From Trypanosoma brucei (Eukaryota), in contig CM000208.1 of assembly GCA_000002445.1 (NCBI GenBank), forward strand, positions 2,624,001 to 2,688,000: DNA of 64,000 bases. The letters run 5' to 3'. The position numbers and the translations under genes are program-made. How positions within the stretch are numbered: the first letter of the stretch is position 1; every line of letters begins with the position of its first letter. Shown here one piece after another: positions 296-60,099 of this stretch. The notes under the pieces were generated by a model, which saw nothing but the letters and a program-made list of their open reading frames with translations, had not been told where the DNA came from and ran no database searches.

Positions 296-601
296 CTAGA
301 ATTCCTCTTCGTCCTCCTCCTGCGGCCCCCCTTCACGCTCAGGCATTTGCAATCCAAATGGCGGCGCGCGTACAACTGGTGACAACGTTGGGATCAAGAC
401 GGACGCTCCTTCGGCGATGGCGTTGGGGCCACTCAATACAAAGAGACTGAGCACCATCCCGGCACCGATAGACGGCATCCACCAGTTAACCTTCGTTACG
501 AACCAATCAGCAGCATGGTCGAAAAGATGGTGAAGTTTTTGATAAAAATACTTCTCTTCCCAGGTTGCCTGGGGGACGGCGGGGCGACCGAACATCATCA
601 C
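296..601 (-). CDS. Candidate small protein (101 aa) with one predicted TM helix (MPSIGAGMVLSLFVLSGPNAIA) and an acidic EEDEEEF C-terminus
   Basis: ORF on the same strand as the whole gene array, downstream of the 786-aa gene. The minus-strand flank at 880-1045 (A-rich, then (CA)n on the plus strand) is T- and TG-rich, so it could serve as a splice-acceptor tract. No family recognised. Confidence 0.3.
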   Translation of the reverse strand: MMMFGRPAVPQATWEEKYFYQKLHHLFDHAADWFVTKVNWWMPSIGAGMVLSLFVLSGPNAIAEGASVLIPTLSPVVRAPPFGLQMPEREGGPQEEDEEEF

Positions 602-1018
602 TGCAGAGGACTTGTTACACTAACGAGAAGGTAGTCTGTTACACAAGCACACAAGGAAGAAGATTGTTACAAAGGGCAGAAACTGTATCCAACCAACCCA
701 TAGACACATATTTGCATGTGTTGGACTGAGCGTTGAGAGTGCGGAGTTGACGATGAGAAAGCAGAAAAAGTATAAATAGGGGTTAGTGGCTGCATTCGAG
801 ATTGATGAGGTGCTGCTCCACACATGTGCAGAATTGTGTGCGTTGGTTCCCCATGCAGCATGACTTTCCCCCCTTCCAAGGCGATTAAAAAGAAAGTAAT
901 AATAATAAAGGACCTAATGAACTAATCAAAAAATAAATAACCTCTGTGAAAAAATAGCTCAGCCAATGCCGCTTCCAAATCTTTTAGTGGGATGCTCAGA
1001 AGAATAGCAACGGTAAAA

Positions 1019-1045
1019 ACACACACACACACACACACACACACA
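1019..1045. repeat. (CA)12 microsatellite
   Basis: Direct reading: acacacacacacacacacacacac. Confidence 0.95.
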
Positions 1046-1171
1046 TATCTTGTTCGCCAGCCTGTGGGCATTGTGTTTGAAAAGCAATCGGTCACTTCAC
1101 TCACATCTGCTGTCTCTGATTTTTGGGAGCTACCGCTGTCCCATAAGGGACACTACGCTACCCACCGCAGC

Positions 1172-3532
1172 TCACTTTGCATCTGCCGGCATGCTCGACT
1201 CTAAGTGTATCTGAAGATCTCTTGCATACTGCATAACATCAAAACCATCATCGTTTACTATGAGATCAAAAACTGACGTCCCTCCGATCAAAGAGACGCC
1301 AACCATAAACCTCAGCGACGCATCGCAGAGCTCAATGGCCACTATGGCATCAACCAAAGCTGTCGATACTGGGCCCGTGGACGCAGAGACTTGGCAAGCA
1401 CAAGTTTTTTTCTCTCTTGAACTACTACCCCTTCGTGCGGCTCGTGGATGGCCAACATGTCGCAGCAACGCGTGAGCACAAGTAATCTTTACCAATACAC
1501 TCATCATGACCACATCAACTGCATCCCTACATATGGCTTTAACTGTCAGAAAGTACGAATGGAGTAGTGCCGAACATTGTGGCAAGACTTGCGGTACGGT
1601 TGGCTCCTCAACCGAACGAGCTAACGACCAAGCGTACCACACGTCCCACTGGTTCTCGCACCGGTTAAAGAAATCAACCGTCAGGTTGCAGTCACACTCA
1701 GCATTCCCTCGCAGTGCGCCAAAAAGCACTTCTGCTTGCTCCTGAGGGGATTTGAATGAATGCGATGACACGTGTAAAACGAAGTCCCCCTTGTCAATGA
1801 ACTGAAAAAGGTGCCGCTGCTGTACTAATGTCGATTCCTGGGTCATACCCAGCAGGGCACTGGCGGTACGACATTTAACCGACTGGCCTCCCTCACGGAT
1901 AACAACGTGTTCCCGTTGCTCAAGTGCGCTTTGTATTGCGTTTAGGGCTGGTGTGGTGATTGCTTGTAGCGATGGTATGAAAACAACTTGCTGAAAAGCT
2001 GTGTTCAGTGTGCCCCCTCGAACCCACTCGACGTGGGGAGCCACCCCGTCTTCCGTAGGTAACATTACATGGGAAGCTGGTGCGCGTGCATACATTGGAA
2101 GTAGTGCTTTTTCCAACCCATGTACCACCGGTGACACAAAATTTGTTTCCTCCCCCAGCTCAAGCAAGAATGTCCGCAGTGGAGTAAGGGTATCTGCCGA
2201 CCCCACCACACTAGTGACGACACCACCGTCCTGCAATTTCGAGGACGCGAGGACGATACCCGCTGCCGCCCACAGTGAGATCGGCAACGCGGAGACATCT
2301 AGTGCCGCCAGAATTGCTTCCATTCTCGTTCTCCCATGCGACCCCCTGAATCCTCCGCCAGCTTTCGCGGCAGCAAACGTAACCGCGCCGGCCACGCATT
2401 CCCAACAGCACCTCGCTTGATAAACAGCGCAAACCTCATTGTGCTCACTTGTTTTTGCCATTCCTACCCCGCCACATGGGCGCGCTGAAGGGAAGGGTGG
2501 GGTTAATGCCTCCGCGGTTGACTGCTGATTTGACCACTGCGGGGAAAACCGTGCCGTCCGAACAAAGCGAGCTTTCAGCAGAATCCGTGTGGGTGAAGAA
2601 TCGGGTCCCTTTTTCGAATATAAGGTTGTCCCTCGACCAATTGCGGATGTTTCCACTAATCCCACTGCATGAATACGCTCACCGACCACCAGCGTTTCCT
2701 TCATTTCTAGCTGAGGAATGAATGAGAGATCTAGCCAAAGTGGTTGTTGAGCCACGACACCGACACCGTTGGAGGTCTGGGTTCGCAGCTCCGCAATAGG
2801 CATCGGGTCGCTTGATTCGCGGTGGAGGAAGAAAATACTAGTGATGTGCCCTATAACTTCCCACCATCTCCCGCTCCCGATTAAACCATCACCCGGCCGG
2901 CTGTGCATCGAACGCAGGCCTTGAAGTTGAAGAAAACTCGGCAGCCCGTCCGCAGCGACATGCAACCCTACCTTCAGCTCCTCTGCCCGTATCAAATCCC
3001 AAAAGGCGCATGACCATCGGGATGTGTGCACACATATCATGCACGGAAAGTTCGCGTCACCCGGTCGTACCTCGCAGGTAGGAACGTTTCTCGTGGCAGG
3101 TTCGACTACATGATAGCATGGTTTGTTAAGAAGATTGGCTTCCTTATCTATCGCCACCAAGGCCGCTTCGTGTCTCAGCCAGTTCATTAGCACTTCTTCC
3201 ATAACTTCATCTAGTCTCCTGGGTGACATGACCAGAAGTGAGCCCAAAGTGGGATACTTTGATATCACCTCCATCATATGCACAATCAGTCGGAGGTTTA
3301 CTTGGTTGCAAGCAACTTCTGCGGAGGGAAGCACCCTTGTTACCGTTTCCGCCAGAAACGATAGTTCTGAAAGCAACTGCTCCCGTGTGCTGTCGCCTCC
3401 AAGCAATAGAGTCTGCGCTTCCTGCTTCTCCGTATCGGTACAACCATCGACCATTAAGAGGGTGTCGCTGTGACCCTCTACCATTGTAGAGGCAGTGACG
3501 CAAAAAAGTAGCCCCTCTGATACCGAACACAT
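1172..3532 (-). CDS. Hypothetical protein, 786 aa (true start possibly at internal MVEGHSD). A weak resemblance to a GT4-type glycosyltransferase C-terminal half is not secure.
   Basis: Long uninterrupted ORF on the array strand. Composition matches neighbouring genes. No decisive motif. Confidence 0.6.
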   Translation of the reverse strand: MCSVSEGLLFCVTASTMVEGHSDTLLMVDGCTDTEKQEAQTLLLGGDSTREQLLSELSFLAETVTRVLPSAEVACNQVNLRLIVHMMEVISKYPTLGSLLVMSPRRLDEVMEEVLMNWLRHEAALVAIDKEANLLNKPCYHVVEPATRNVPTCEVRPGDANFPCMICVHTSRWSCAFWDLIRAEELKVGLHVAADGLPSFLQLQGLRSMHSRPGDGLIGSGRWWEVIGHITSIFFLHRESSDPMPIAELRTQTSNGVGVVAQQPLWLDLSFIPQLEMKETLVVGERIHAVGLVETSAIGRGTTLYSKKGPDSSPTRILLKARFVRTARFSPQWSNQQSTAEALTPPFPSARPCGGVGMAKTSEHNEVCAVYQARCCWECVAGAVTFAAAKAGGGFRGSHGRTRMEAILAALDVSALPISLWAAAGIVLASSKLQDGGVVTSVVGSADTLTPLRTFLLELGEETNFVSPVVHGLEKALLPMYARAPASHVMLPTEDGVAPHVEWVRGGTLNTAFQQVVFIPSLQAITTPALNAIQSALEQREHVVIREGGQSVKCRTASALLGMTQESTLVQQRHLFQFIDKGDFVLHVSSHSFKSPQEQAEVLFGALRGNAECDCNLTVDFFNRCENQWDVWYAWSLARSVEEPTVPQVLPQCSALLHSYFLTVKAICRDAVDVVMMSVLVKITCAHALLRHVGHPRAARRGSSSREKKTCACQVSASTGPVSTALVDAIVAIELCDASLRFMVGVSLIGGTSVFDLIVNDDGFDVMQYARDLQIHLESSMPADAK

Positions 3533-3748: not shown

Positions 3749-4693
3749 TTACTTCGGCACTGGGATACGATGCTGTAGTGCAACTCCATGCCACCCCAGT
3801 TCTTCCTCAACGCATCGGTTGAGCTCCTCGTCCCTCGCAAGACGTCGGGCACTAGCGCGCATTGCAGCGCTGCCCTCGCAATCGCTTCGCTCGGAACGGT
3901 TAAGCCGCTGAAGTTCTTCACGTATGCGATGGACTGTCGCTTCCGTCAACTGCTCTACGCGCTCAGGTGTATCGAACACCTGGTTCCTTCCCGGTGTGGT
4001 ATCGCGGGAATCTGCATGTCCTTCCAGCCGACATGACATTGTGGACGAAGGTGACACGACACTAGCAACTCCTGCCTCACTACTTTCCCTAGACAAGGTA
4101 ACTGAAGTAGGAAGCCGGACCCACGCTCTGCGTGCCGAGCGAAACCACCCGAGCAGGTCGTCGAGCTGTGCCCAACCGATGGACTCTTCCAGCAGAGGGA
4201 GGCGCTGGTGGACTTCATATCTGTAAAGGTTCTGGCCGTCCCGCACGCGCTGGCGTTCGTATTGTGTAAGATTCACCCAAGCCTTACTTCTATCTTCTAA
4301 CCCCAACTGGCACATCTTTTCCCACAGTTTTGCGCTGATGGCGGATTCAGCACATCGATGAAGGGACGGGATTAGATAACTCCAATTGCATGTGTCATGG
4401 CAATGCCGCTGCAGACCTGCGCACGACCCGTTGGGGGGCCTGCTATGCAGAATCAATTTCCTATGATACAGCTGACCGGACTCTGGCATCGTTGCCTGAG
4501 AGGAGTGCCTCACACCATTTAGGACACCAAGAGCCCGTCCCGAATGCCGCCTCGCGTCGGGATTTTCATACAATAAATCACCGCGACCACTCCCGCCGTA
4601 TACTCGGCGTGAAGGAGTTAGGGTCAGGGAAACGGCATCGGGAAAAACTCCGCCGCCTCGGCGTATTAGTCCCGCTGAAGCCCCCATCTTCAT
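3749..4693 (-). CDS. Hypothetical protein, 314 aa
   Basis: ORF on the array strand. Arg-rich, no recognisable domain. Confidence 0.5.
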   Translation of the reverse strand: MKMGASAGLIRRGGGVFPDAVSLTLTPSRRVYGGSGRGDLLYENPDARRHSGRALGVLNGVRHSSQATMPESGQLYHRKLILHSRPPNGSCAGLQRHCHDTCNWSYLIPSLHRCAESAISAKLWEKMCQLGLEDRSKAWVNLTQYERQRVRDGQNLYRYEVHQRLPLLEESIGWAQLDDLLGWFRSARRAWVRLPTSVTLSRESSEAGVASVVSPSSTMSCRLEGHADSRDTTPGRNQVFDTPERVEQLTEATVHRIREELQRLNRSERSDCEGSAAMRASARRLARDEELNRCVEEELGWHGVALQHRIPVPK

Positions 4694-4995: not shown

Positions 4996-5586
4996 TCAAC
5001 CAGTGTTACCCGAGTACGTATTCCTGGAAAAGTCATCGTCGCGACTCCTCTCAGAGCGATACCAGTAATGGTCCTTTTGTTGCTGTTGGTCCCGGGACAG
5101 TATGGACCAGTTCCGTTCACTGTTTCGGATATTCCAGTGCGGTTCACGAACATAAAGTTGCCCACTTGTAACCTTCATTGTTGCATTACTGTACTTAGTT
5201 GCCTTTTCTTTTTCCATGTCAATAATGCGGCGGAGCTCGTTCCGCTTGGCCTCATCTTGCGTTGTACTAAGTAGAAACTCTAGCTTGCTGATGTGGTCCA
5301 ATGATCCCGCCCTTTGCGCATGGCAGTGGTCATCAATCACTTGGCTACCTTCAACAGAAGAGTCCGTGTACTGTTGTAGTTCGTACTCAAGATGGTTGCT
5401 AACGTTAGGGGAAGGAATGCGGTTTTTGTGTGTCACATTCACCTCGTAAAGAACGGTGGCTGCAGCCGAGGCAAGAAATATGCCCCAAGTACGATAGGGG
5501 TGTTGTTGCACCCACCGCCTCGTGCGGTAAAGCCAGGAAGATATTTCCTTCCCAAGAAATGGAATGGGCACCACCTTCTCACGCAT
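4996..5586 (-). CDS. Hypothetical protein, 196 aa, with one hydrophobic segment (WGIFLASAAATVLY)
   Basis: ORF on the array strand between two larger genes. Confidence 0.45.
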   Translation of the reverse strand: MREKVVPIPFLGKEISSWLYRTRRWVQQHPYRTWGIFLASAAATVLYEVNVTHKNRIPSPNVSNHLEYELQQYTDSSVEGSQVIDDHCHAQRAGSLDHISKLEFLLSTTQDEAKRNELRRIIDMEKEKATKYSNATMKVTSGQLYVREPHWNIRNSERNWSILSRDQQQQKDHYWYRSERSRDDDFSRNTYSGNTG

Positions 5587-5901: not shown

Positions 5902-7353
5902 CTATTCGCTTGCATCGCATTTTTCCTGTATTTTCCTCAGCAGGGAGAAAGTCACGTTTTCCCCCAACACTAGATGTCTTTCCGCAGTCGTCAGAAAATC
6001 ATACGAGGGGCGTAAACGCCGGAGTTCTGACAGGAGAATGTCACTGAATGGGCCATCTTGGAACGGTCCTGTTTCCGAGTCGGGCGAGCTGCGCAAACAG
6101 CTCTTCAACTTAGCAGCTTGACCGAGACGGAGGAGAAATCCTGAGTAAGTGGCGCAACAACGGCCCCTTATGGTGGGCAACAGTACTTCATAACGCCTAA
6201 GTTCACTCTCTAGGAAACGTGCTGGAAGCCAAAGAAAACGTACGCTGCACAACAAAGACTCTATGGCACCTTCTTTACATGTACAGTTTGAGTCTGGTAC
6301 TGACTCAGGTTTGTCCACCCTTGTTGAAGTGTGCGAAACAGAACCTGTGTGTCTCGATGCCGATGCGAAGCGAACGCAATCCCCCGTGCGATCCGTGAAG
6401 TGTAGCTCACATGCTGCACAAGCAATTTTGTAGGGCATGATTTCATTGGGAAACCCTGTATTCTCCAGCACCTTTCCAAGAACGGAGTACGGAAGATGAG
6501 CCAGTGCATCAACGGAAGTGGTTGTACCTTCAGTACGCAAGACACTGAGTTTCCTTTCCGTATGCTTGGGAGTCTCAATTCCAATAACGCTTTTATTCAA
6601 CCGCTCCACTAACAACGACGCGTAACGGTCTAGGAGGTTGTCGCTAGTCGTCCCAAGAGCCGACGCCAAGAGTTCCTCGCCAAACGAGTTCGGCAGCGTC
6701 TCCCTGCACCTCCAGCAGGCAGGCGGAGGTAAGTTGTAGAAGGTTGTAAGAAGGTCCACAACGTCCAATAACGAGCCGTCAGCCGACTCCAACGACGCAT
6801 TTGGCACACAGCAACCACAGTTGATTTGTGCTCCTTTGGAAGACGCTGCGCCCTCCACGCATTCTCCTCCCTCTTCTTCCCCTGTAAAAGTAGATTGGCA
6901 CGATCCTCCCTGCTGTGGTCCTACACCAGAAGGCACCCTAAAACGTGGCGACAAATCTGACATCGGTTTCACCTCCGATGTTTGGCAGCAACAACAACGA
7001 ACCGAGGGAAACAGGATGAAAGGAAGGGGCTTGGACGCACTTCTGTTACAACATAAAGTCTTTGTTGGTGTAAAAGCACCGTTCTCTTCCCCCAACCTCG
7101 GTCGATCGCCAACATCAACACGGAAAGAATCTAACTTTTTGCGCAGCGACGCCATTTCTCGCTTCAGCTCAATAATATCACTCACATTGACTTCCGCCGC
7201 TCGCCATTCCCGGGGCCGCACCCCCTCATGCCCCGTAGAAAAATCTAAGCTATCGTAAGACGGGGGCGGATCCAGCTGTATCGGAAAGTGGCGTCCATCC
7301 GATGGGGTTTCCAAGGGGAAAACAATATCGTATGGAGGCGGCGGAGAGCCCAT
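5902..7353 (-). CDS. Hypothetical Cys-rich protein, 483 aa, with two N-terminal PPxY motifs (PPPPY at residue 5, PPPSY at residue 30)
   Basis: Long ORF on the array strand. N-terminus reads MGSPPPPYDIVFPLETPSDGRHFPIQLDPPPSYDSLDF. Several CxxC pairs occur later in the protein. Confidence 0.6.
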   Translation of the reverse strand: MGSPPPPYDIVFPLETPSDGRHFPIQLDPPPSYDSLDFSTGHEGVRPREWRAAEVNVSDIIELKREMASLRKKLDSFRVDVGDRPRLGEENGAFTPTKTLCCNRSASKPLPFILFPSVRCCCCQTSEVKPMSDLSPRFRVPSGVGPQQGGSCQSTFTGEEEGGECVEGAASSKGAQINCGCCVPNASLESADGSLLDVVDLLTTFYNLPPPACWRCRETLPNSFGEELLASALGTTSDNLLDRYASLLVERLNKSVIGIETPKHTERKLSVLRTEGTTTSVDALAHLPYSVLGKVLENTGFPNEIMPYKIACAACELHFTDRTGDCVRFASASRHTGSVSHTSTRVDKPESVPDSNCTCKEGAIESLLCSVRFLWLPARFLESELRRYEVLLPTIRGRCCATYSGFLLRLGQAAKLKSCLRSSPDSETGPFQDGPFSDILLSELRRLRPSYDFLTTAERHLVLGENVTFSLLRKIQEKCDASE

Positions 7354-7359
7354 TAAACA

Positions 7360-33779: not shown

Positions 33780-33800
33780 AACACACACACACACATACAT
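33780..33800. repeat. (CA)8 microsatellite in a 2.3 kb intergenic or UTR region
   Basis: Direct reading: acacacacacacacacatacat. Confidence 0.9.
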
Positions 33801-48042: not shown

Positions 48043-48399
48043 CTAATTGGCAACATGGACCTCTGCGGACCGAGTGCTCGACATCATCGACAAGTGCTCT
48101 TTGAGCAGCTGAGAACGCTTAATGGTATACGCTCTTTTCGTACAATCCGGACAACAAGGGTTTCCCCTCAGCAGGTACCGCTCGGGACAACAATGAGTAC
48201 AAAATTGGCGACCGCACCAATCACAATTAGTGCTGGGAGTGAAGTAAAAACAGAATGGTTCTTCACACGACGAGCAGAAGCGGCCATCCCTGGGCCGAGC
48301 ACTTTCCGGAGCGGGTACATATGTTATTGGTTCTACTTTATCCTTCACTTCAGGAGGAACCTCTTCGTGTGTGCGAACGTTGCTAAAAATCGTGCCCAT
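48043..48399 (-). CDS. Small (118 aa) Cys-rich zinc-finger protein with an N-terminal myristoylation consensus (MGTIFSN)
   Basis: ORF on the array strand: MGxxxS start, Cys cluster CSSCEEPFCFYF...CDWCGRQFCTHCCPERY...CCPDC. The overlapping 262-aa plus-strand ORF 47704..48492 is judged spurious. Confidence 0.45.
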   Translation of the reverse strand: MGTIFSNVRTHEEVPPEVKDKVEPITYVPAPESARPRDGRFCSSCEEPFCFYFTPSTNCDWCGRQFCTHCCPERYLLRGNPCCPDCTKRAYTIKRSQLLKEHLSMMSSTRSAEVHVAN

Positions 48400-48533
48400 G
48401 ACAACAACCTAGAGCAGTACACCTACGGCCGCCGGGTCACAACGCCGGCGCAACAAGGGAAAGGCGATAGGAGGAACAAATGGCTCGTTTAGTCTGGTAT
48501 AATTAGAAGCAAAAAAAAAAGCTATGTGGACCT

Positions 48534-51377: not shown

Positions 51378-52811
51378 CTACACTGTAGGATTTGGTTGGG
51401 GGCAGGGCGCTTGCCCATAAGAGTGACCCTGTTGTTGCGGTGGTGGCGGTTGGCCGTAAGTATAGCCTCCTTGTGGTGGTGGCGGTTGGCCATACGTGTA
51501 CCCTTGTTGCGGTGGTGGCTTCCCATAAGTATACCCTCCTTGTTGCGGCGGTGGTGGTTGGCCATACGTGTGCCCTTGTTGCGGTGGTGGTGGTTGCCCA
51601 TAGGGATAACCTTGTTGTTGCGGCGGTGGTGGTTGCCCATAAAGGTAGCCCTGCTGCGGCAGTGGTTGGCCGTAGGCATAACCTGGTGGTGGTGGTGGTT
51701 GTGATTGTCCGTATGTATAAGGAGAGCCATCCCCCTGAGGTGTATCAGGATCACTCGTATCATTGGATGAAGAGCCCTTACGCTTCAGACAGAAGCAAAC
51801 TACACACACACACACGGCAATTTCCAGAAGAAGGAGCAGCGATCCGGCCACGATACAAGCGATTCCCATTGTCCGATTCGGAACGCCGAATTCACCCTCG
51901 CCCATCGTTTCACGCTCGAGTGCGATGAAAGGATCTCCCTCACTGTATAACTGCACCTGAACCTTATCCTGGGGTACCGCCTCGTATCCCTGGGACAGAT
52001 GTCCAAAACTGTACAACGCGCTCTGATATTGGGTACTTTCCCTGTACCCCCCTTTTCCATCGCTTGCAGCGACAAGATAGAGCTTGGACAAATACACTTC
52101 CTGCTTGCAGTAGCCGCACTTTTCACCCAACCGACATTTCGAGCTTTGAGTAGTGTATTGGCCACCTTGTGAATAGCACTTGTTCCTAAATTGCTCGTGC
52201 TTCTCTTGACAGTCACATTTTCTGGAATATCCAGAACATTGAGAAGAACTGCAGGAGAACCATCTCTCCCTTGTTGCATGAAGAGGTGACCTCCGCGTGA
52301 ACGGTGCGACGGTGTTAATGTTCACCTTCACTACCAGTTGGCTGCCATCGGTGTTACCGCTAACCGGGACGGTGGCTTCAGTGTAAACGGACGGTATCGG
52401 ACCAAAACCCGCGACGGACAGTGACTGCCGTCTGACGGTGGCCTTCACATCACTGAATGTTCCAGTCCAACTCTCCAGGGGCTTTGGGTCGAATGCACTC
52501 ACCGCCTTCTTGAAATTGTCACGAGGGTCGTCGCTGGAGAGGAAAAGTACGCCAACACCGATGAGGACAGGGCCTCCAATGAGGAGACAACATAGGCACG
52601 CAACCGCGGTCTTGAAGAATTCACCGACAGAGTGCACGAGCTGTTCGATGCACATGAAGCTTTTCCTTGCGACGGCGTTAGCTCTGCACAACGAGTAGGG
52701 AAGAAAGGTGAGAGTAGGGTTTGGCGGTGGAAGCACGCGCGCACACGCATAATCGAAACTTACAACTGAGCACACGAAAAAGCGAGTTACAAGCACAAAT
52801 TTGTCAACCAA
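51378..52811 (-). CDS. Membrane protein with a Cys-rich ectodomain, one TM helix (MGIACIVAGSLLLLLEIAVCVCVVCFCL) and a cytoplasmic tail of about 8 GYxYGQPPPPQQ repeats (Pro/Tyr/Gln-rich)
   Basis: ORF on the array strand. N-terminal signal-anchor-like segment. 12-aa imperfect repeats at the C-terminus (51378 to about 51700). The first repeat contains PPGY. Confidence 0.65.
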   Translation of the reverse strand: MVDKFVLVTRFFVCSVVSFDYACARVLPPPNPTLTFLPYSLCRANAVARKSFMCIEQLVHSVGEFFKTAVACLCCLLIGGPVLIGVGVLFLSSDDPRDNFKKAVSAFDPKPLESWTGTFSDVKATVRRQSLSVAGFGPIPSVYTEATVPVSGNTDGSQLVVKVNINTVAPFTRRSPLHATRERWFSCSSSQCSGYSRKCDCQEKHEQFRNKCYSQGGQYTTQSSKCRLGEKCGYCKQEVYLSKLYLVAASDGKGGYRESTQYQSALYSFGHLSQGYEAVPQDKVQVQLYSEGDPFIALERETMGEGEFGVPNRTMGIACIVAGSLLLLLEIAVCVCVVCFCLKRKGSSSNDTSDPDTPQGDGSPYTYGQSQPPPPPGYAYGQPLPQQGYLYGQPPPPQQQGYPYGQPPPPQQGHTYGQPPPPQQGGYTYGKPPPQQGYTYGQPPPPQGGYTYGQPPPPQQQGHSYGQAPCPQPNPTV

Positions 52812-52856
52812 CCGCCGAGATATTAGAACCAGCGGGCAGTAGCAGTAGCGGATCCT

Positions 52857-53861
52857 TCACAACTTCTTTACTTCACCCACAGTCCTCTGCCGCATCAGCG
52901 TTAGGAGTGTCTCGACAGTGGCGCTGTCATTTCGCTCGTCCTCCACCTTTCGGAACTGTAAGCGAAGCTTCCGCGCCTCTTTTTCGTGTAGTTTTTGTTG
53001 GATGCTGTCAACATAATGCTGTTTCTCCCGGTTGCGAGAGCCGCTCATAACGTAGCCGAGGGACTCCGCAGCAGCAACGCTCTCCGCATCGTATCCAATC
53101 TCCCCACGACGCGGTGCTCGCTTATACTGTGCAAGGAACTCCTCGCGGGTCATTTGCAGTGGATGCTTTGAAGCAGCGACGCACCCTCGTGGCTCCTCGG
53201 TTTTGCTGTAGTCCGGTTCGTTGCCTTGTTGCAACGACACACCAAACTCGTCACCCCCATCATCCCCCGTCTGTGCACCTACCCGTAGCCCACGGCACTC
53301 ACCGTCGGCGGTGGCGCCGCCGCTACGTGGTGGCGCCGGGCACATTACATGACAGACGCCACTGTCGGTCTTGATAGGCCCTACACCTTCTACAGTTTCC
53401 CTCGCACGCGCTGCCTCGATGAGGGCTGCGAGCGCGCTGGGGGTTGGGGACACCCCTGCCGCGTCAACACGCCTAACCTCATGCGCGGTGCTGGTCGCCA
53501 CCTCTGGTTCGTGGTGGTCATCACATGGTGACGGAGACGCTGCCGACACTTCCCCTGCGCTAGGACTCTCTCCCTCTGCGTCGTAGCCTACACCTGAGGA
53601 GCGCACGAGGAACGCAACAGTTTCGCTCAACGGGCTCTCCCCCGTCCTCGTTCCGTCACCCCGTCCGTTCACCGTACAAGTTCGCTGGGGACGCGACTGT
53701 CCCGGTAGACTCCCTCTCTTTCCAAGCGCGGATAGTTCGTGCACAGCCAACGTGTGATGCGTGCAAAATATGTTTTGCGCAATAACGGAATGCACAACTT
53801 TCTCTAGCTCCCTACCGCGAGGTTCCATTGCAGGGCACCAAAAGGCACCAGTCCCTGCCAT
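52857..53861 (-). CDS. NKAP (DUF926)-like nuclear protein, 334 aa
   Basis: C-terminal PRRGEIGYDAESVAAAESLGYVMSGSRNREKQ matches the NKAP C-terminal domain signature (GYVMSGSRH). Confidence 0.55.
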   Translation of the reverse strand: MAGTGAFWCPAMEPRGRELEKVVHSVIAQNIFCTHHTLAVHELSALGKRGSLPGQSRPQRTCTVNGRGDGTRTGESPLSETVAFLVRSSGVGYDAEGESPSAGEVSAASPSPCDDHHEPEVATSTAHEVRRVDAAGVSPTPSALAALIEAARARETVEGVGPIKTDSGVCHVMCPAPPRSGGATADGECRGLRVGAQTGDDGGDEFGVSLQQGNEPDYSKTEEPRGCVAASKHPLQMTREEFLAQYKRAPRRGEIGYDAESVAAAESLGYVMSGSRNREKQHYVDSIQQKLHEKEARKLRLQFRKVEDERNDSATVETLLTLMRQRTVGEVKKL

Positions 53862-54111: not shown

Positions 54112-55398
54112 TTACTTATCCTCCCTTTTGGCCAGTCCAATCCAGAATGTTTGCCTTAATCTAGACGACACATCAAGAGCTTCCACCATCTCTATAAGTT
54201 CTTCCCTCGATTTCAGTGGTATACTCTGTTGTGGATGGCGATTGTGTTTTATTTTCGGTGACGCGTTGTGTTTCCGATCCTTTCGCACGTTTTTATCGAT
54301 TATTCTGTTTGATTTCTTTGTACTATCTTTTTTCTTCTTCGATTGATCTTGCCGTGTTTTCATTGTTTCAATTTCCGACGCTTCGATGGGGATGTCGTTT
54401 TTATTGTCACTGTCATCCAACTTCTCTTCGAAGTACACTATTTTCCCGTTGACTACCCTAAGGTCACCATCTTTTACCCATGTTGCATTTGGTATCGGTT
54501 CTTGTGGAACAGAAGAGGGCTTGCTGTGTACTGGCTCTGATTGGTCGGTGGTACACTGGGGGTCTGGGGTTGGTGGCGCATCTGGTGCCGACGTTTCTCT
54601 TCGTATTAACTGCGGTGCTGGCCGACTTAACGACGAAGGGACAGCCTTCTTTTCCAACCGTCTTTTTCTCGCTAACTTCTCGTTAAGTGTGTCACGAGAA
54701 TGAACTCGGAGAGCTGGGCCAGCCGTATCTAGTTTTCTCAATAAACCCCTTTGTTCTGCTGGTCGTATGTCTTGGGCCACACAATGCAACGCAGTCATGC
54801 ATGCGGGTAGGTTGTACCTTCGTGAAAATGGTAGCGGATGGCGAGAAAGCCGCGGTTCTCGTTTCGCTGGCAGCAGCGAGAAAGTTCGTCGTACTGCTGT
54901 GGGTGCAACACGAGCACAGCCCTCGTTTTTGCACAACTTATGGAAGTACTCAGTTGCTTCCTGCGTTCGACTGGCTAGAATTGTCAAATGATGTGGCCGC
55001 TGTGTGCCACTGAACGGCAAGAAGGCTGTACTCAGATCCAATACCGACGTATTGATGAAGCTGCCCACTATTTGAGCGGCGAACGTTACCTCATCAACTG
55101 CAGTCACCACCTTTCCTTCCTTTTCACAATTACCAGATTCTCCACGAATTTCAGCGTCGTAGCGCCGTTGTTGAGCGATTGCGAGTCTGCACATGGATGA
55201 GAGGATGTGCAGGGCAGAGGAGCGTTCCGTCTGCTGTATCAGTCGCCGTGAAAACAACGGACACAAAATGGTACGCGAGGCGACATCGGGAAGACGATCC
55301 GCCATCGCGAGTAGTTTGTTCCGGTAATCCGCATCGGATTCGATATTTTTAAATATGTAAGAAACTGACCATGGTACAAGTGCATCCTCAGCACTCAT
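54112..55398 (-). CDS. Hypothetical protein, 428 aa, Lys-rich C-terminal region
   Basis: Long ORF on the array strand. No domain recognised. Confidence 0.55.
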   Translation of the reverse strand: MSAEDALVPWSVSYIFKNIESDADYRNKLLAMADRLPDVASRTILCPLFSRRLIQQTERSSALHILSSMCRLAIAQQRRYDAEIRGESGNCEKEGKVVTAVDEVTFAAQIVGSFINTSVLDLSTAFLPFSGTQRPHHLTILASRTQEATEYFHKLCKNEGCARVAPTAVRRTFSLLPAKREPRLSRHPLPFSRRYNLPACMTALHCVAQDIRPAEQRGLLRKLDTAGPALRVHSRDTLNEKLARKRRLEKKAVPSSLSRPAPQLIRRETSAPDAPPTPDPQCTTDQSEPVHSKPSSVPQEPIPNATWVKDGDLRVVNGKIVYFEEKLDDSDNKNDIPIEASEIETMKTRQDQSKKKKDSTKKSNRIIDKNVRKDRKHNASPKIKHNRHPQQSIPLKSREELIEMVEALDVSSRLRQTFWIGLAKREDK

Positions 55399-55710: not shown

Positions 55711-58449
55711 TCAGTGCAGAGATGATGCTATATCAGAAAGATCATCCGCAAGTTCAGGGTATTTGTCGGTTAGCTCTCCTAGTATTTCGGCGAATGCCCT
55801 CCGTTTTTCGTTCAGTCTCGATGCCTCAGCTGCCGTATGCTTTAACTCTAGAGCGGACTTGTACGTTCCCTTCTCTGCGTCACGAATGCGCTGGAGACTC
55901 GAGTTCTTCGCGCGTCGCTCGTCCTCTAAACGGTCGTGTTCCTTTTGAGCGACAACAAGTTGTGAGCGAAGCTCGGAAATCTGTTCGTCAAGAGTGTCTA
56001 TTTCCCGCTGAACAGATTCTGCCTCGGCCGTTGTCTTCTCAATGGAAGCAAGACGTTCCTTGATCTGACGCTCTTTTAGCTGCGCCTCTTGTCTTTTTTC
56101 ATTTAACTCCTTAAACATCCTGGAACTTTCTTTTTCAATATCCATTCTCGTCACTCCCCGCTTGTTCACTTTGGCAGCCTCTTGGATCGCCTGGCCTTTT
56201 GCCCTGATGATCTCCCGATGATCAATTGACTTCTGCATTTCTTCAATTAAAAACCGCTGTTCACGCTGCAGGTGACTGACTCGCTGTTCCATGATCCCAA
56301 TCTCTTTTCTCATTTTCTCTACTTCTGCTTTACCAACCGAAGGATCTAACGCCATCTCAGTTTCTTTAGCAACTTGCATTTTCCTCTCCCAAAACAATAT
56401 ATCACTTTCATGATTCATAATTTGTTCAAGGAGTTCGGTTTTCGCCTGTCTAGCTTCCTCCACCTTTTGCTCAAGCACGATCGCCTCACGCTTTTTTTCC
56501 TGGAGTCTACGAATGAGATCATTCTCGAGAAGAAACGCTTCGTTGGCAACGTTCTTCTGATCATCGGAATTTTTGCAAAGTTGAGTGTTTACCCGTTTCA
56601 TCTCTAGGTGCATGGCATTCGCCTTGTTTTCGAGGTTTGCAATGTCCTTTTTCTCGTTTGATATATTTACTAGAAGTCGATCCCTTTTTTGTGTTAGTAC
56701 AGTGCTCTGGGCCTGGAGCTCAAGAATCGCTTCGTTCACTTCATTTGAATTGTTTTTACAGTTAACCAACTCTGTTTGCAGTTTTATCCATTCCTGTTGG
56801 AGAGCCTCATTTTCATTGACTTTTTCCGCAATTGCTTTTGAAAGACTGTTAATGGTGGCCTCCAGGGGCCCTACGTGTTCCCCCTTGTCGGCGCCATAAG
56901 CAGCGACAAGTTGTTCATACTGGTGGTTGAGTTGGTCTAGTTGTTTTTGCTTCCTGTCGATCTCGTCGTGTCGACGGTGAATGTCCATTTGCATGCGTTC
57001 GACCATCAGGCCACGAGCTTGTAGCTCCTTTTCGAGATCGCCCAATGTGGTTTTCAGGGTCTCATTATGTGACTGAGCCTGCAGTGTGTCCACACGAATG
57101 CGAGCAAGTTCGTTCTCCATTTGTGCCACTTGAAGCTCCTTGGATCTAATGGAGCCTTTCATTTTTTCGATATCACTCAACGTACCGTGGCACTCTTGTT
57201 TCAGTGAGGACTGCTTACCAAGTGACTCGAGTATGTCATTTTCCATCAGGACCACCTCCTTAGAAACCTTCAACATCTTCTTCTCGATATCGGCAGCTTC
57301 GGTAGAGTATGTTCTTGCCTCGTATTCCAGCTTTTTGGCTTCTGCATCTGTTTGTTCAATATTATCCTTCAGCATCACGTATTCACGTGCGCCTTTCTCC
57401 TTTCTTTCCACAAGGACATCGATCTGCTTCCCTAGAACGGTAACTTCGTTGTCAACTCGAGACATGAATTCAGCCAATTTGGCAGTCTCTGCTTGAACGC
57501 CTTTAATGTCTTTCCTTGTCCCAATTATCTCGTTCTCGAGCACTTGTAGCTCATCTTTCTGCTGTTGCAGTGCCTCTTCTGTCTTTTTCATGGCTTCGTG
57601 ACGCCGTTGCATCCCAATGAGCGTACCCTTCCACTGTTGAACTAATTGTTTTTTTTCAAAATTAATTGCCTCCATTTCTGCCAAAGCTTCAGCTAATATT
57701 TCCCGAGCCTTCTGGGTTTCCCTTTGCTGGTTCTCGACCTGGGAGTTAACCGTGGATATTTCTTCTTCTAGCAGAACAACACGTTTCTCCAAAGAATCTA
57801 TAAGGTTGTCTTGCTTCAACTTTTCCTTCTCCAAGTTGGTTATATCTTCCTCTGTTTTGAAAGCAGCACGGCGCTCCACTTGAACTTCGTTTTTGAGTTG
57901 TTCATTAAACTGTTGGACTTTCACTAATGTTTCAGTAAGCTTTAAAAGATCCGCCTGCTGACGTTCGTATTGTCGTTGCTGGTCCTCAATGTTTTTCCGA
58001 AGTGTGTCTGCCTGCGCAGCAAGTTCCTCTCGTTCTTGAAGCTTTTCCTCGTGTTTTTGCTTTGTTGCGAGGTGCTTTTCATGGCATTTCTCAAGAGTTT
58101 CCTGCAACTTGGCAAGGTGTTGCTGGGAATTGTAAAGCTCAACACCGCATTGCTCCCTTTCTTTCTGAGCCTTAGATAATTCATTCTTTACTTCATAGAT
58201 CTGCTGCATGACCTCTTCCAGATGCTGTCGAAGTTGCGCTTCAATGCGCTTCTGGACCGGTGCGAGCACCGCAGATTCCGGGTCCAGGTCGGAAACATCG
58301 CTTGCAACATCGTATGGTACGTCGGACATAGATTCTCCTGCGGAATAACTGTAGTGAGCAAGATCAGTTGTGAAAAAAGCACAAATAAAGGTACACGCAC
58401 AAAAAAAAAGGAAAGCAAAAAAAAAAAAAAAAGAGCATAGTCGATACAT
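55711..58449 (-). CDS. Long coiled-coil protein, about 870 aa. True start probably MSDVPYDV with ATG at 58327-58329; the track start at 58449 translates the upstream pyrimidine tract.
   Basis: Heptad-like, Glu/Lys/Gln/Leu-rich sequence throughout. A purine-rich plus-strand tract at 58370-58440 lies immediately upstream of the MSDV start. Confidence 0.7.
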   Translation of the reverse strand: MYRLCSFFFFFAFLFFCACTFICAFFTTDLAHYSYSAGESMSDVPYDVASDVSDLDPESAVLAPVQKRIEAQLRQHLEEVMQQIYEVKNELSKAQKEREQCGVELYNSQQHLAKLQETLEKCHEKHLATKQKHEEKLQEREELAAQADTLRKNIEDQQRQYERQQADLLKLTETLVKVQQFNEQLKNEVQVERRAAFKTEEDITNLEKEKLKQDNLIDSLEKRVVLLEEEISTVNSQVENQQRETQKAREILAEALAEMEAINFEKKQLVQQWKGTLIGMQRRHEAMKKTEEALQQQKDELQVLENEIIGTRKDIKGVQAETAKLAEFMSRVDNEVTVLGKQIDVLVERKEKGAREYVMLKDNIEQTDAEAKKLEYEARTYSTEAADIEKKMLKVSKEVVLMENDILESLGKQSSLKQECHGTLSDIEKMKGSIRSKELQVAQMENELARIRVDTLQAQSHNETLKTTLGDLEKELQARGLMVERMQMDIHRRHDEIDRKQKQLDQLNHQYEQLVAAYGADKGEHVGPLEATINSLSKAIAEKVNENEALQQEWIKLQTELVNCKNNSNEVNEAILELQAQSTVLTQKRDRLLVNISNEKKDIANLENKANAMHLEMKRVNTQLCKNSDDQKNVANEAFLLENDLIRRLQEKKREAIVLEQKVEEARQAKTELLEQIMNHESDILFWERKMQVAKETEMALDPSVGKAEVEKMRKEIGIMEQRVSHLQREQRFLIEEMQKSIDHREIIRAKGQAIQEAAKVNKRGVTRMDIEKESSRMFKELNEKRQEAQLKERQIKERLASIEKTTAEAESVQREIDTLDEQISELRSQLVVAQKEHDRLEDERRAKNSSLQRIRDAEKGTYKSALELKHTAAEASRLNEKRRAFAEILGELTDKYPELADDLSDIASSLH

Positions 58450-58526
58450 AAAGCACCAGCTCGGACACCGTTTGCACGACCTAGCGAAGGAAAGTGGTCA
58501 GAGGGGAACCCCAAAGCCCATATTGC

Positions 58527-59162
58527 TCACACTGTCTTTTTACTCTGTCGTCGCTCTTCGCACTCTGCCCACTGAGGCATCTTGTTAATTTCCCGATAAT
58601 CGGGCAACGGTGCCTGGTCAATACCACTCTGATGTGGTCGATACTTCTCAGGAAGCTCCGGTATAACGCGATAACTGTAATCAACTGTTTTGAATTGCTT
58701 ATAGTATAACCACTCTTCTTTCGTATCAAATCTCTCAGGTGGATTTCCATTCTGAAACGCCTGAACAGCCGTTCGAATAGCGTCTCGAGTCATCCGTGGG
58801 ATTCCCCTTACACGTAGTTGTCGTTTGTCGCAAGTAAATAAATCATTCCAGTCCTTAAACGATGCCTTGAAGTCACTCGTGGGCCTCAAACGGTGTATAT
58901 CAGCTCTTTCTAGAAATGTCTCGTGGTTTGGTACATAAGATGTAGGAGGACGTATGGACTGTGGAACAATTTCCGATCGCTGTGTGGTTTCTATTGGTGC
59001 CAACTTGCGTGGATCCGGCATGTACGTATACTTGTACGACTTGTGTGGCCCATATGTTTGATCTAAAACAGTTAACGTTCTTTTCAGCATCCTTAGACCA
59101 CCCTTTCTCAACAGGCTCAAAAAAAGTGAGAGTTTTGAGGGGGCATGCGTAGCTTCTGACAA
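58527..59162 (-). CDS. Hypothetical protein, 211 aa (possible start at MLKRTLTV)
   Basis: ORF on the array strand. No domain recognised. Confidence 0.5.
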   Translation of the reverse strand: MSEATHAPSKLSLFLSLLRKGGLRMLKRTLTVLDQTYGPHKSYKYTYMPDPRKLAPIETTQRSEIVPQSIRPPTSYVPNHETFLERADIHRLRPTSDFKASFKDWNDLFTCDKRQLRVRGIPRMTRDAIRTAVQAFQNGNPPERFDTKEEWLYYKQFKTVDYSYRVIPELPEKYRPHQSGIDQAPLPDYREINKMPQWAECEERRQSKKTV

Positions 59163-59344
59163 CTTATCTGCTTAAAGCGAGATCTAGGGAAACTTACCAT
59201 AACACACAACACATTACCCGCTCCCCTTACCCGACGTTTCACAAGTTCATATTAGAGAGTTGGAAGCAAACAGGTCAAAGGATCATGACGACTTCTCTGG
59301 TACCGTGCTTCGCTTTTTATTCGACTACTTAATTTATCTAGCTT

Positions 59345-60094
59345 TCAGTTGTGGACTTGCACCCCCACCACTGCTGCTAATAGTCCCGGGATTGTTATTG
59401 CTCCACTGCTAACGGTGATAATTTTCCCCTTCACAGTCTTTCCGTTTAGTTGTTGAATACACTTTAGAACAGAATCAGGCGACCTGTAGAACACCATTGC
59501 CATGGTCTCATAACGGCTCAGATCGATTAACTCTCCAAACGGCGAAAATAATCGGGCTACCTGATCGTTAGTCATGTTAAAAGGAACGTTGTCTACCAAT
59601 GCTACGCTGGCCCGCGCGGGTGGCGTAAATGGATGGTGTCGAATTGCATTATTCCCTTTGTTACTTGTTCGCTCGCTGCCGCTACCTGGGCCTATCACGC
59701 TTGGGTGGCGTCGCCGGTTCCCTTCGCGTTTTCTTTCATTGAATGTGACGTCCCCTTTATCAGTCGCCCCGAAGGAAAAAATTTCCATTGCAGGATCAAT
59801 TAACATATTCTTTCCCATTTTGCGCATCCTTTGCTTAGCCTTTGGTTCTTCAATCTTTCGTACTAGCCCCGGAACGGCATCTATCCGCGAAGTGGCATCC
59901 CTAGCAGCCTCCTTGTCGCTAAACTTAATGAAAACGCTCGTCGTATTTTCTTTACCTTCTTTGGTTCGTAGAGAACCCACCGCCTCCACGCCAGGCCACT
60001 CGCGGACAACGGCTTCAATACGTTGAAAATCGTGCGTGGGGCAATATGCCAGCAGCACAGAAGGATCCACCATATATATATATATATGCGGCAC
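59345..60094 (-). CDS. RNA-binding protein with two RRM-like domains, about 240 aa. True start probably MVDPSV about 60071; the track start translates an (AT)n run.
   Basis: Two segments with RRM-like beta-alpha-beta patterns (SVFIKFSDKEAARDA...; LVDNVPFNMTNDQVARLFSPFGELIDLSRYETMAMVFYRS). Confidence 0.6.
   Translation of the reverse strand: MPHIYIYMVDPSVLLAYCPTHDFQRIEAVVREWPGVEAVGSLRTKEGKENTTSVFIKFSDKEAARDATSRIDAVPGLVRKIEEPKAKQRMRKMGKNMLIDPAMEIFSFGATDKGDVTFNERKREGNRRRHPSVIGPGSGSERTSNKGNNAIRHHPFTPPARASVALVDNVPFNMTNDQVARLFSPFGELIDLSRYETMAMVFYRSPDSVLKCIQQLNGKTVKGKIITVSSGAITIPGLLAAVVGVQVHN
60072..60087. repeat. (AT)8 microsatellite at the 5' end of the RRM gene
   Basis: Direct reading: atatatatatatatat. 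Confidence 0.9.
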
Positions 60095-60099
60095 TCCCT

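What the first reader, a model, noticed from the sequence alone, without database searches (positions are those of the whole stretch)
296..60094. A strictly unidirectional array of about 27 intronless genes (kinetoplastid-type polycistronic unit)
Every credible ORF from 0.3 to 60.1 kb is on the minus strand. Spacers are 0.3-2.3 kb. Upstream of many starts the coding strand carries a pyrimidine tract (seen as A/G runs on the plus strand, for example 45770-45810 and 58370-58440). Downstream flanks are AT-rich. There are no candidate introns and no bacterial ribosome-binding-site spacing. This combination is characteristic of trypanosomatid polycistronic transcription units processed by trans-splicing. 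The gene content (ATG7, RtcB, NFU1, SET, photolyase) is eukaryotic. The species is not identified. The AT-rich UTR-like flanks and roughly 50-55% GC coding point towards a Trypanosoma-like genome rather than Leishmania.
Basis: partly seen in the sequence, partly recalled or inferred. Interest (0 to 1): 0.5.

Follow-up and report, generated by a model that had tools for sequence, protein, structure and literature searches.

The report
Trypanosoma brucei chromosome 10 polycistronic unit

Summary
Between 296 and 60073, every ORF supported by domains, orthologues or codon usage lies on the minus strand. I count 25 genes rather than about 27, with 80% coding density and spacers of 197-2320 nt (median about 360).

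Plus-strand ORFs are either antisense shadows of minus-strand genes or artefacts of a 6-kb tandem-repeat block.

Pyrimidine tracts in the spacers favour the coding strand: 16 spacers against 4, p = 7e-4.

The interpretation also holds, and the species can now be named. Seventeen of 20 ORF translations queried are letter-for-letter in public collections. Thirteen carry T. b. brucei TREU927 accessions, and five of those were listed for TREU927 alone. Together with three shorter TREU927 cluster members, they fill an ordered series from EAN78484 (ATOM11) to EAN78508 (RBP23, Tb927.10.11270). ATG7 is Tb927.10.11180.

The unit starts at RBP23 (59345-60073). In close relatives, a 4.4-5.1 kb ORF-free region lies upstream, followed by genes on the opposite strand. 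That is a divergent strand-switch region, and the same boundary occurs in T. cruzi and T. theileri. Downstream, the unit runs off the window's left edge.

Transcription and trans-splicing are inferred from established trypanosome biology, not shown here. Already known; low interest.

The parts
296..598 (-). ATOM11 (archaic translocase of outer membrane, 11 kDa subunit), 100 aa; the last gene of the unit that lies fully inside the window
   Evidence: Exact match to EAN78484.1 and named members; gene called in T. equiperdum; coding-like in its own frame
1172..3532 (-). Conserved hypothetical protein, 786 aa
   Evidence: Exact product on T. equiperdum OVI contig L003; own frame scores best; no Pfam hit
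3749..4693 (-). Hypothetical protein, 314 aa
   Evidence: Gene called in L003; own frame scores best
4996..5586 (-). Hypothetical protein, 196 aa
   Evidence: Gene called in L003; coding-like
5902..7353 (-). Hypothetical protein, 483 aa
   Evidence: Gene called in L003; own frame scores best
7857..15105 (-). Giant repeat-containing gene. The N-terminal 450 aa resemble 'flagellar antigen / paraflagellar rod protein'. About 38 repeats of 19 aa follow, then about 41 repeats of 29/33 aa. The reading frame breaks twice near 10090-10200
   Evidence: Tandem repeats; translations and frame breaks; homologues
15452..17506 (-). Conserved hypothetical protein, 684 aa (EAN78490.1)
   Evidence: Exact match to TREU927
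18031..19737 (-). Deoxyribodipyrimidine photolyase, 568 aa (EAN78491.1)
   Evidence: Pfam DNA_photolyase + FAD_binding_7; exact match
20320..22857 (-). Conserved hypothetical protein, 845 aa from the first ATG (TREU927 annotates 773 aa, EAN78492.1)
23266..24015 (-). HD-domain protein, 249 aa from the first ATG (TREU927 annotates 218 aa, EAN78493.1)
24330..27329 (-). SET-domain protein, 999 aa (EAN78494.1)
   Evidence: Pfam SET; exact match
28044..32714 (-). Large protein with DUF7495-DUF7498 domains, 1556 aa from the first ATG
   Evidence: Pfam; own frame scores best
32715..35034 (-). Longest spacer (2320 nt), with no gene signal; probably long untranslated regions
   Evidence: No ORF, Pfam or credible Rfam hit
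35035..35715 (-). Conserved hypothetical protein, 226 aa (EAN78496.1)
   Evidence: Exact match, listed for TREU927 only
36328..37341 (-). NFU-type iron-sulfur cluster scaffold protein, 337 aa
   Evidence: Pfam Nfu_N + NifU; T. grayi orthologue
37705..43128 (-). Conserved hypothetical protein, 1807 aa (EAN78498.1)
   Evidence: Exact match; single HSP over residues 1-1807 against T. grayi
43481..45745 (-). ATG7 (Tb927.10.11180), 754 aa (EAN78499.1)
   Evidence: Pfam ATG7_N + ThiF; exact match; gene ID from PMC5349162
45770..45810 (-). Polypyrimidine tract upstream of ATG7, followed by an AG 8 nt before the ATG; candidate spliced-leader acceptor region
46097..47557 (-). RtcB RNA ligase, 486 aa (EAN78500.1)
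   Evidence: Pfam RtcB, profile positions 1-426 of 426; exact match
48043..48399 (-). FYVE-type small protein, 118 aa (EAN78501.1). The overlapping 250-aa plus-strand ORF is its antisense shadow
49514..50929 (-). Conserved hypothetical protein (WD-repeat), 471 aa (EAN78502.1)
51378..52655 (-). Procyclic form surface glycoprotein/phosphoprotein, 425 aa (EAN78503.1). This is PSSA-2 (Tb927.10.11220) by gene order; it has a proline-rich C-terminal repeat
   Evidence: Exact match and name; PSSA-2 = Tb927.10.11220; tandem repeat at 51409-51666
52857..53861 (-). NKAP C-terminal domain protein, 334 aa from the first ATG (323 aa as called in relatives)
   Evidence: Pfam Nkap_C
54112..55398 (-). Conserved hypothetical protein, 428 aa (TREU927 annotates 397 aa, EAN78505.1)
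55711..58329 (-). Coiled-coil protein (CCDC39/CCDC40-like, also labelled BRE1), 872 aa (EAN78506.1). The true ATG is at 58329, not 58449
58375..58433 (-). Long T-rich polypyrimidine tract in the spacer upstream of the coiled-coil gene
58527..59090 (-). Mitoribosomal mS41-like protein, 187 aa
   Evidence: Pfam; exact product in T. b. equiperdum and T. equiperdum
59345..60073 (-). RBP23 (Tb927.10.11270; Q389L2; EAN78508.1), an RRM protein of 242 aa; FIRST gene of the unit
   Evidence: Pfam RRM_1; exact match; gene ID; position next to the strand switch
60074..64000 (.). ORF-free divergent strand-switch region (inferred transcription start region). It continues about 0.5-1.1 kb beyond the window's right end before the first opposite-strand gene
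   Evidence: Gene maps of L004 and L005; mapping to the window; no Pfam, Rfam or tRNA hits; orthologue check

Best explanation
The window is part of chromosome 10 of Trypanosoma brucei brucei TREU927, covering genes EAN78484 to EAN78508 and including ATG7 (Tb927.10.11180) and RBP23 (Tb927.10.11270).

The 25 co-oriented genes form the promoter-proximal 60 kb of an RNA polymerase II polycistronic transcription unit. By inference, transcription starts in the ORF-free divergent strand-switch region at 60.1-64 kb and beyond. It then runs leftwards through RBP23, mS41, CCDC40 and the rest down to ATOM11, and continues past the window's left edge.

The long precursor is cut into single mRNAs in two coupled steps. 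A 39-nt spliced leader is trans-spliced at an AG downstream of each intergenic pyrimidine tract, and the upstream mRNA is polyadenylated. Expression differences between neighbours, such as the stage-regulated PSSA-2, arise after transcription.

Shown here: species and locus identity, gene strand and order, the strand switch, conserved synteny, and the strand-biased pyrimidine tracts.

Inferred from established T. brucei biology: polymerase II initiation in the strand-switch region, trans-splicing and polyadenylation.
For: Identity:
- ATG7 is 99% identical to the T. brucei-group cluster representative, with a steep drop to 60% in T. congolense and about 40% in Leishmania.
- Seventeen of 20 window ORF translations are exact sequences in public collections. 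Thirteen carry TREU927 accessions on a 4,054,025-bp record. Five of these (RtcB, RBP23, the 226-aa and 1807-aa proteins, and PSSA-2) were listed for TREU927 alone.
- The accessions follow the window's gene order from EAN78484 to EAN78508.
- DNA identity to T. equiperdum and T. b. equiperdum contigs is 98.3-99.9%.
- Gene IDs come from the literature.

Unidirectionality.

Unit boundary:
- In L004 and L005, RBP23 is preceded by a 4.4-kb gap without called genes, then by opposite-strand genes including IFT57.
- The same divergent arrangement, IFT57/126-aa/436-aa on one strand and RBP23/mS41/CCDC39/.../Nkap_C on the other, occurs in T. theileri and T. cruzi.
- Same-strand genes continue downstream of the window's left end.
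- Order and strand are conserved in T. grayi from Nkap_C to NFU.

Processing signals: coding-strand pyrimidine tracts in spacers, 16 against 4, p = 7e-4, with the examples read directly.

Established mechanism: T. brucei genes lie in polymerase II polycistronic units that typically start in strand-switch regions between divergent units. A pyrimidine tract plus AG upstream of each ORF serves spliced-leader trans-splicing (PMC5359979). Transcription start regions are marked by H2A.Z and contain GT-rich elements on the coding strand (PMC5579346).
Against: - No transcript data were available. The short Logan contigs that match are genomic, spanning two genes and breaking at a (TA)n run, and no spliced-leader sequence occurs in them. 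Splice-acceptor and poly(A) sites and the transcription start are therefore not mapped.
- The GT-richness of the sense strand next to RBP23 (56-60% over about 1.1 kb) is barely above that of ordinary spacers (about 55.5%). It is not diagnostic of a promoter.
- Four spacers have stronger pyrimidine tracts on the non-coding strand, and six are tied.
- Three queried ORF translations have no exact entry, and four of the exact matches lack a TREU927 accession. Where a TREU927 cluster member was listed, it is shorter than the first-ATG ORF (773 against 845, 218 against 249 and 397 against 428 aa).
Confidence: 0.96

Rival explanations
1. The array is a co-directional gene cluster of some other organism, such as a bacterial or archaeal operon region, a nematode-type operon, or another protist with gene-dense one-strand blocks, rather than a kinetoplastid unit.
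For: One-strand gene runs and intronless ORFs also occur in prokaryotes and some other protists. The ORF lists alone would not distinguish them.
Against: Exact protein identity to T. b. brucei TREU927. The taxonomic gradient of hits lies inside Trypanosomatida. Gene content is eukaryotic: ATG7, NKAP, a SET-domain protein and mitoribosomal mS41. Spacers have a median of about 360 nt.
Confidence: 0.01
2. The block is not one transcription unit. An internal head-to-tail (non-divergent) transcription start or termination region splits it, for example in the 2.3-kb spacer at 32.7-35.0 kb or the 1.1-kb spacer at 48.4-49.5 kb.
For: Non-divergent start regions between head-to-tail units exist in T. 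brucei; 57 are reported (PMC5579346; PMC5359979). The 2320-nt spacer is far longer than the median and carries pyrimidine-rich windows on both strands (115 against 105). Nothing computed here can exclude initiation there.
Against: No tRNA or other RNA gene lies in the window. A 2.3-kb gap is within the range of long trypanosome untranslated regions (my own knowledge). The only clear gene-free region of several kb is the one at 60.1-64 kb.
Confidence: 0.08
3. Part of the block is transcribed by RNA polymerase I, like the procyclin and VSG expression units, because it contains a procyclic-stage surface protein gene (PSSA-2).
For: PSSA-2 mRNA is strongly stage-regulated (PMC3957582). T. brucei does use polymerase I for some surface-protein genes (PMC5359979).
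Against: PSSA-2 sits in the middle of housekeeping genes with spacers of only 201 and 448 nt, which leave no room for a separate promoter region. The same gene order occurs in T. grayi, T. theileri and T. cruzi. Stage regulation in trypanosomes is generally post-transcriptional.
Confidence: 0.01

Closest known systems
RNA polymerase II polycistronic transcription units of Trypanosoma brucei (TREU927 reference genome; boundaries described through histone variants at strand-switch regions, cited in PMC5359979 and PMC5579346)
   Same: Everything tested matches: species, chromosome, gene order, strict co-orientation, absence of introns, short spacers with coding-strand pyrimidine tracts, and a divergent strand-switch region at the 5' end. 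The window is itself a piece of that reference genome.
   Different: Nothing of substance. My ORF starts (first ATG) differ from the TREU927 annotation for three genes where a shorter TREU927 member was listed (845/773, 249/218 and 428/397 aa). Three further first-ATG ORFs (1556, 334 and 1638 aa) have no exact entry at all.
Syntenic units in T. cruzi, T. theileri and T. grayi
   Same: Same genes in the same order and on the same strand. The same divergent boundary lies between the IFT57-side unit and the RBP23-side unit.
   Different: The strand-switch gap is 0.85 kb in T. theileri and 1.4 kb in T. cruzi, against 4.4-5.1 kb in the T. brucei group. The flagellar-antigen-like gene is 310-440 aa in those species but carries about 6 kb of repeats here.
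Leishmania polycistronic units
   Same: Same general organisation (PMC11708010, listed).
   Different: In L. tarentolae, ATG7 sits 2.7 kb from one end of a 580-kb contig and in a different gene neighbourhood, with DOT1 and Isy1 on the opposite strand. ATG7 identity is only about 42%. Synteny is therefore broken there.

Membership tests
Kinetoplastid (T. brucei) RNA polymerase II polycistronic transcription unit | The sequence belongs to a kinetoplastid genome | tested here: met
   Exact protein matches to T. b. brucei TREU927, within the series EAN78484-EAN78508. The hit gradient lies within Trypanosomatida.
Kinetoplastid (T. brucei) RNA polymerase II polycistronic transcription unit | Many functionally unrelated protein-coding genes lie head to tail on one strand, with none on the other | tested here: met
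   25 of 25 genes are on the minus strand, and their functions are unrelated. Plus-strand ORFs are antisense shadows or repeat artefacts.
Kinetoplastid (T. brucei) RNA polymerase II polycistronic transcription unit | Genes lack cis-spliced introns | tested here: met
   Single ORFs cover the Pfam models end to end. Orthologues align as single HSPs. The exact annotated proteins equal the uninterrupted ORF translations.
Kinetoplastid (T. brucei) RNA polymerase II polycistronic transcription unit | A polypyrimidine tract plus AG lies upstream of each ORF on the coding strand (trans-splicing and polyadenylation signal) | tested here: met
   The tract is stronger on the coding strand in 16 spacers, equal in 6 and weaker in 4 (p = 7e-4). 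Twenty of 26 spacers reach at least 17 of 20 pyrimidines. Examples were read directly. This is a statistical tendency, not a site-by-site proof.
Kinetoplastid (T. brucei) RNA polymerase II polycistronic transcription unit | The unit is bounded by a strand-switch region or a head-to-tail start or termination region | tested here: met
   The 5' boundary is a divergent strand switch, seen in L004 and L005 and conserved in T. cruzi and T. theileri. The 3' boundary lies outside the window.
Kinetoplastid (T. brucei) RNA polymerase II polycistronic transcription unit | mRNAs carry the 39-nt spliced leader and are made from one long polymerase II precursor; the start region is marked by H2A.Z, H2B.V and H4K10ac | not testable with these tools
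   No RNA-seq or ChIP data were available. The matching Logan contigs are genomic and contain no spliced-leader sequence.
GT-rich dispersed polymerase II promoter (Wedel et al. 2017, PMC5579346) | GT-rich elements on the coding strand within the transcription start region | tested here: inconclusive
   The sense strand is 56-60% G+T over the 1.1 kb next to RBP23. The far end of the region is 58% G+T on the opposite strand. Ordinary spacers are already about 55.5% G+T on the sense strand.

The most novel reading that the evidence does not exclude
The strand-switch region upstream of RBP23 is three to six times longer in the T. brucei group (4.4-5.1 kb) than in T. cruzi or T. theileri (0.85-1.4 kb). 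The extra sequence has no recognisable ORF, domain, RNA family or repeat. It could hold a lineage-specific promoter, chromatin or non-coding RNA element rather than neutral filler. Separately, the two frame breaks in the giant flagellar-antigen-like repeat gene could be real, meaning a truncated or split gene in this strain, rather than assembly errors.
Probability: 0.1. Interest if true: 0.3.

Novelty: already known. Interest (0 to 1): 0.05.

Why it matters
It matters only as a check on the scan. A reader working from raw sequence correctly recognised kinetoplastid genome architecture, and tools then pinned it to a published reference locus (T. b. brucei TREU927, chromosome 10, around Tb927.10.11180-11270). 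Polycistronic units, strand-switch start regions and trans-splicing signals in T. brucei have been described for about two decades, so this adds no new biology. The small by-products are an expanded strand-switch region relative to other trypanosomes and frame breaks in a 7-kb repeat gene. Both are of minor, specialist interest.

Tried and rejected
- Exact look-ups of the RtcB and RBP23 products in the gene-position index found nothing, although both sequences are in the protein collection. The TREU927 record itself could therefore not be fetched, and window-to-reference DNA identity was not measured directly. Close relatives (T. equiperdum OVI and T. b. equiperdum) were used instead.
- I looked for spliced-leader sequence in the short Logan contigs, hoping they were transcript assemblies. 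They are genomic.
- An uninterrupted pyrimidine-run measure over a fixed 400 nt upstream of each ATG gave almost no strand difference (11.3 against 10.0), because it ran into neighbouring coding sequence. I replaced it with a spacer-restricted 20-nt window measure.
- Rfam at gathering threshold over the whole window, and at permissive E-value in the two long gene-free stretches, gave nothing but two chance-level bacterial riboswitch hits. ARAGORN found no tRNA.
- Pfam on the longest stop-free segments of 60.1-64 kb and 32.7-35.0 kb found nothing, so there are no retroelement remnants detectable this way.
- BLASTN of the strand-switch region against the rest of the window and against the T. cruzi and T. 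theileri loci found no similarity.
- The 136-aa ORF at 48534-48944 was rejected as a gene. It has a neutral codon score, no T. grayi match, and is annotated only in T. b. gambiense as 'hypothetical protein, unlikely'.
- The 147-aa ORF called inside the strand-switch region of T. b. equiperdum has no orthologue in T. cruzi or T. theileri.
- The Leishmania tarentolae ATG7 locus is not syntenic, so it gave no support either way.
Full report
**1. Observation**

A mechanical ORF list shows that nearly all long ORFs lie on the minus strand.

The only large plus-strand ORFs, at 7889-13854, fall in a block of 87/99-nt and 57-nt tandem repeats. That block leaves several frames open on both strands, so those ORFs are artefacts.

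Pfam finds domains above the curated cut-off in eleven minus-strand ORFs:
- photolyase
- SET
- DUF7495-7498
- Nfu_N/NifU
- ATG7_N + ThiF
- RtcB
- an Extensin-like proline-rich region
- Nkap_C
- BRE1/CCDC39-like coiled coil
- mS41
- RRM

It finds none in any plus-strand ORF tested.

I trained a codon-usage log-odds model on the Pfam-supported genes, leaving out the gene under test. Every gene-sized minus-strand ORF scores best in its own frame. Almost every plus-strand ORF of at least 100 aa scores best in a reverse frame. The three exceptions score about zero.

The one plus-strand ORF that looked independent is 47740-48492 (250 aa). It overlaps a 118-aa minus-strand ORF that is 64% identical to a called T. 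grayi gene (E = 7e-42). The plus frame reaches only 33%.

I count 25 genes, or 26 with a doubtful 136-aa ORF. Coding density is 80%, and spacers are 197-2320 nt with a median of 358. The probability of 25 of 25 genes on one strand under random orientation is 6e-8.

**2. Signals in the spacers**

- 45770-45810 reads CTTTTTTTCTTTTTTTTT on the coding strand. It ends 34 nt before the ATG7 start, with an AG 8 nt before the ATG.
- 58375-58433 holds long T runs. These lie inside the first 40 codons of the longest ORF. However, the protein called in relatives, and present in TREU927, is 872 aa and starts at 58329.

I then restricted the analysis to the spacers themselves. The best 20-nt pyrimidine window is stronger on the coding strand in 16 spacers, equal in 6 and weaker in 4 (Wilcoxon p = 7e-4).

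The flanks are only mildly AT-rich: 46% GC against 52% in coding sequence.

**3. Identity**

ATG7 is 99% identical to the T. brucei-group cluster representative. Identity falls to 60% in T. congolense, 56-58% in T. grayi, T. rangeli, T. cruzi and T. conorhini, and about 40% in Leishmania and other trypanosomatids.

Exact-sequence look-ups settle the source:
- Seventeen of the 20 ORF translations queried are present letter for letter.
- Thirteen of them carry T. b. brucei TREU927 accessions on a 4,054,025-bp record.
- Five of those were listed for TREU927 alone: RtcB, RBP23, the 226-aa protein, the 1807-aa protein and PSSA-2.
- With the three shorter TREU927 cluster members, the accessions follow the window's gene order: EAN78484 (ATOM11, 296-598), 490, 491, 492, 493, 494, 496, 498, 499, 500, 501, 502, 503, 505, 506 and 508 (RBP23, 59345-60073). 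That series implies 25 consecutive annotated genes.

The literature gives ATG7 = Tb927.10.11180 (PMC5349162), RBP23 = Tb927.10.11270 = Q389L2 (PMC9585242) and PSSA-2 = Tb927.10.11220 (PMC3957582). The last fits the 425-aa 'procyclic form surface glycoprotein' four genes upstream of ATG7.

DNA identity is 99.5-99.9% to T. equiperdum OVI contigs and 98.3-99.2% to the T. b. equiperdum chromosome.

**4. Boundaries**

Loci from T. b. equiperdum and T. equiperdum extend beyond the window's right end. RBP23 is preceded by 4.4 kb without called genes. Beyond that lie genes on the opposite strand: a 147-aa ORF, 347-aa and 126-aa genes, and IFT57.

The 147-aa ORF has no orthologue. The next gene really extends to about 433 aa, so the gene-free gap is about 5.1 kb.

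The same divergent junction occurs in T. theileri and T. cruzi. There, IFT57, a 126-aa gene and a 436-aa gene lie on one strand, and RBP23, mS41, CCDC39, a 428-aa gene and Nkap_C lie on the other. The gaps are only 0.85 and 1.4 kb.

Window 60074-64000 is therefore most of a divergent strand-switch region, and RBP23 is the first gene of the unit.

At the other end, the T. equiperdum contig shows at least four more same-strand genes beyond window position 1: a MutS-like gene, 298-aa and 338-aa genes, and a WD40 gene. The unit therefore runs off the window.

T. grayi keeps the order Nkap_C - 417 aa - 489 aa - 118 aa - RtcB - ATG7 - 1776 aa - NFU on one strand.

**5. Mechanism**

The following steps are established for T. 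brucei rather than shown here:
- Polymerase II starts in strand-switch regions between divergent units.
- It transcribes tens to hundreds of kb.
- A pyrimidine tract plus AG upstream of each ORF directs spliced-leader trans-splicing, which is coupled to polyadenylation of the upstream mRNA.
- Regulation is post-transcriptional (PMC5359979).
- Start regions carry H2A.Z and GT-rich coding-strand elements (PMC5579346).

In this window, the sense strand next to RBP23 is 56-60% G+T over 1.1 kb, and the far end of the region is G+T-rich on the other strand. Ordinary spacers are about 55.5% G+T, so I treat this as consistent but not diagnostic.

No transcript data could be obtained. The short Logan contigs are genomic.

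**6. Rivals**

- A non-kinetoplastid origin is excluded by the exact matches.
- An internal head-to-tail start or stop, most plausibly in the 2.3-kb spacer at 32.7-35.0 kb, cannot be excluded without ChIP or nascent-RNA data. Nothing points to it, however: there is no tRNA, no RNA family and no ORF there.
- Polymerase I transcription of PSSA-2 is very unlikely. Its spacers are only 201 and 448 nt, and its position is syntenic in other trypanosomes.

**7. Verdict**

The object is a piece of a published reference genome that shows textbook organisation. It is already known, and interest is low.

Noticed in passing
window 7857-15105 (-), especially 10090-10200: This is a giant repeat gene. Its 450-aa N-terminal domain is homologous to the 'putative flagellar antigen / paraflagellar rod protein' of other trypanosomes, which is 310-440 aa there and 767 aa in T. 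congolense. About 38 repeats of 19 aa (EPEDQKELDIAQPEVIQTL) follow, then about 41 repeats of 29/33 aa (EELEEPQQVPAEAQPEAAAPEGDIAVEA...). The reading frame shifts twice within about 100 nt near 10.1-10.2 kb, splitting the repeats into ORFs of 1638 and 745 aa. Whether this is an assembly error or a real truncation is unresolved. The 1638-aa translation has no exact entry in the protein collection.
   Followed up: partly
window 60074-64000, continuing in L004 3940-9017: The divergent strand-switch region upstream of RBP23 is 4.4-5.1 kb in the T. brucei group, but 0.85 kb in T. theileri (L010) and 1.4 kb in T. cruzi (L011). The extra sequence has no ORF, Pfam, Rfam, tRNA or repeat signal and no similarity to the other species' loci.
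   Followed up: partly
window 32715-35034: This 2.3-kb spacer is unusually long (the median is about 0.36 kb). Pyrimidine-rich windows occur on both strands, and there is no detectable gene or RNA family. It is probably a long untranslated region, but it is the likeliest place for an internal start or stop if there is one.
   Followed up: partly
window 55711-58449, 20320-22857, 23266-24015, 54112-55398, 52857-53861: The longest ORF overstates several genes, because annotated starts are downstream ATGs. Lengths from the first ATG against the annotation are 912 vs 872 aa, 845 vs 773, 249 vs 218, 428 vs 397, and 334 vs 323 in relatives. For the 872-aa gene, the first 40 'codons' contain the polypyrimidine tract.
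   Followed up: yes
window 48534-48944 (-): This 136-aa ORF is annotated only in T. b. gambiense, as 'hypothetical protein, unlikely'. Its codon score is neutral and it has no match in the syntenic T. grayi locus, so it is probably not a gene. Leaving it out makes the spacer here 1114 nt.
   Followed up: yes
window 51409-51666 (-): The C-terminal proline-rich 36/72/108-nt repeats of the procyclic surface protein PSSA-2 vary in length. The protein is 425 aa here, 424 aa in T. b. gambiense, 475 aa in T. b. equiperdum and 412 aa in an older GenBank entry.
   Followed up: no
window 60066-60090 and 1019-1045: Two microsatellites. A (TA)n run abuts the RBP23 start codon, and short-read Logan contigs break there. 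An (AC)13.5 run lies in the spacer downstream of the 786-aa gene.
   Followed up: no
L009 (Leishmania tarentolae BLBS01000008.1, 1-14865): In L. tarentolae, ATG7 lies 2.7 kb from one end of a 580-kb contig. DOT1 and Isy1 lie upstream on the opposite strand, so synteny with the Trypanosoma unit is broken at this gene.
   Followed up: no
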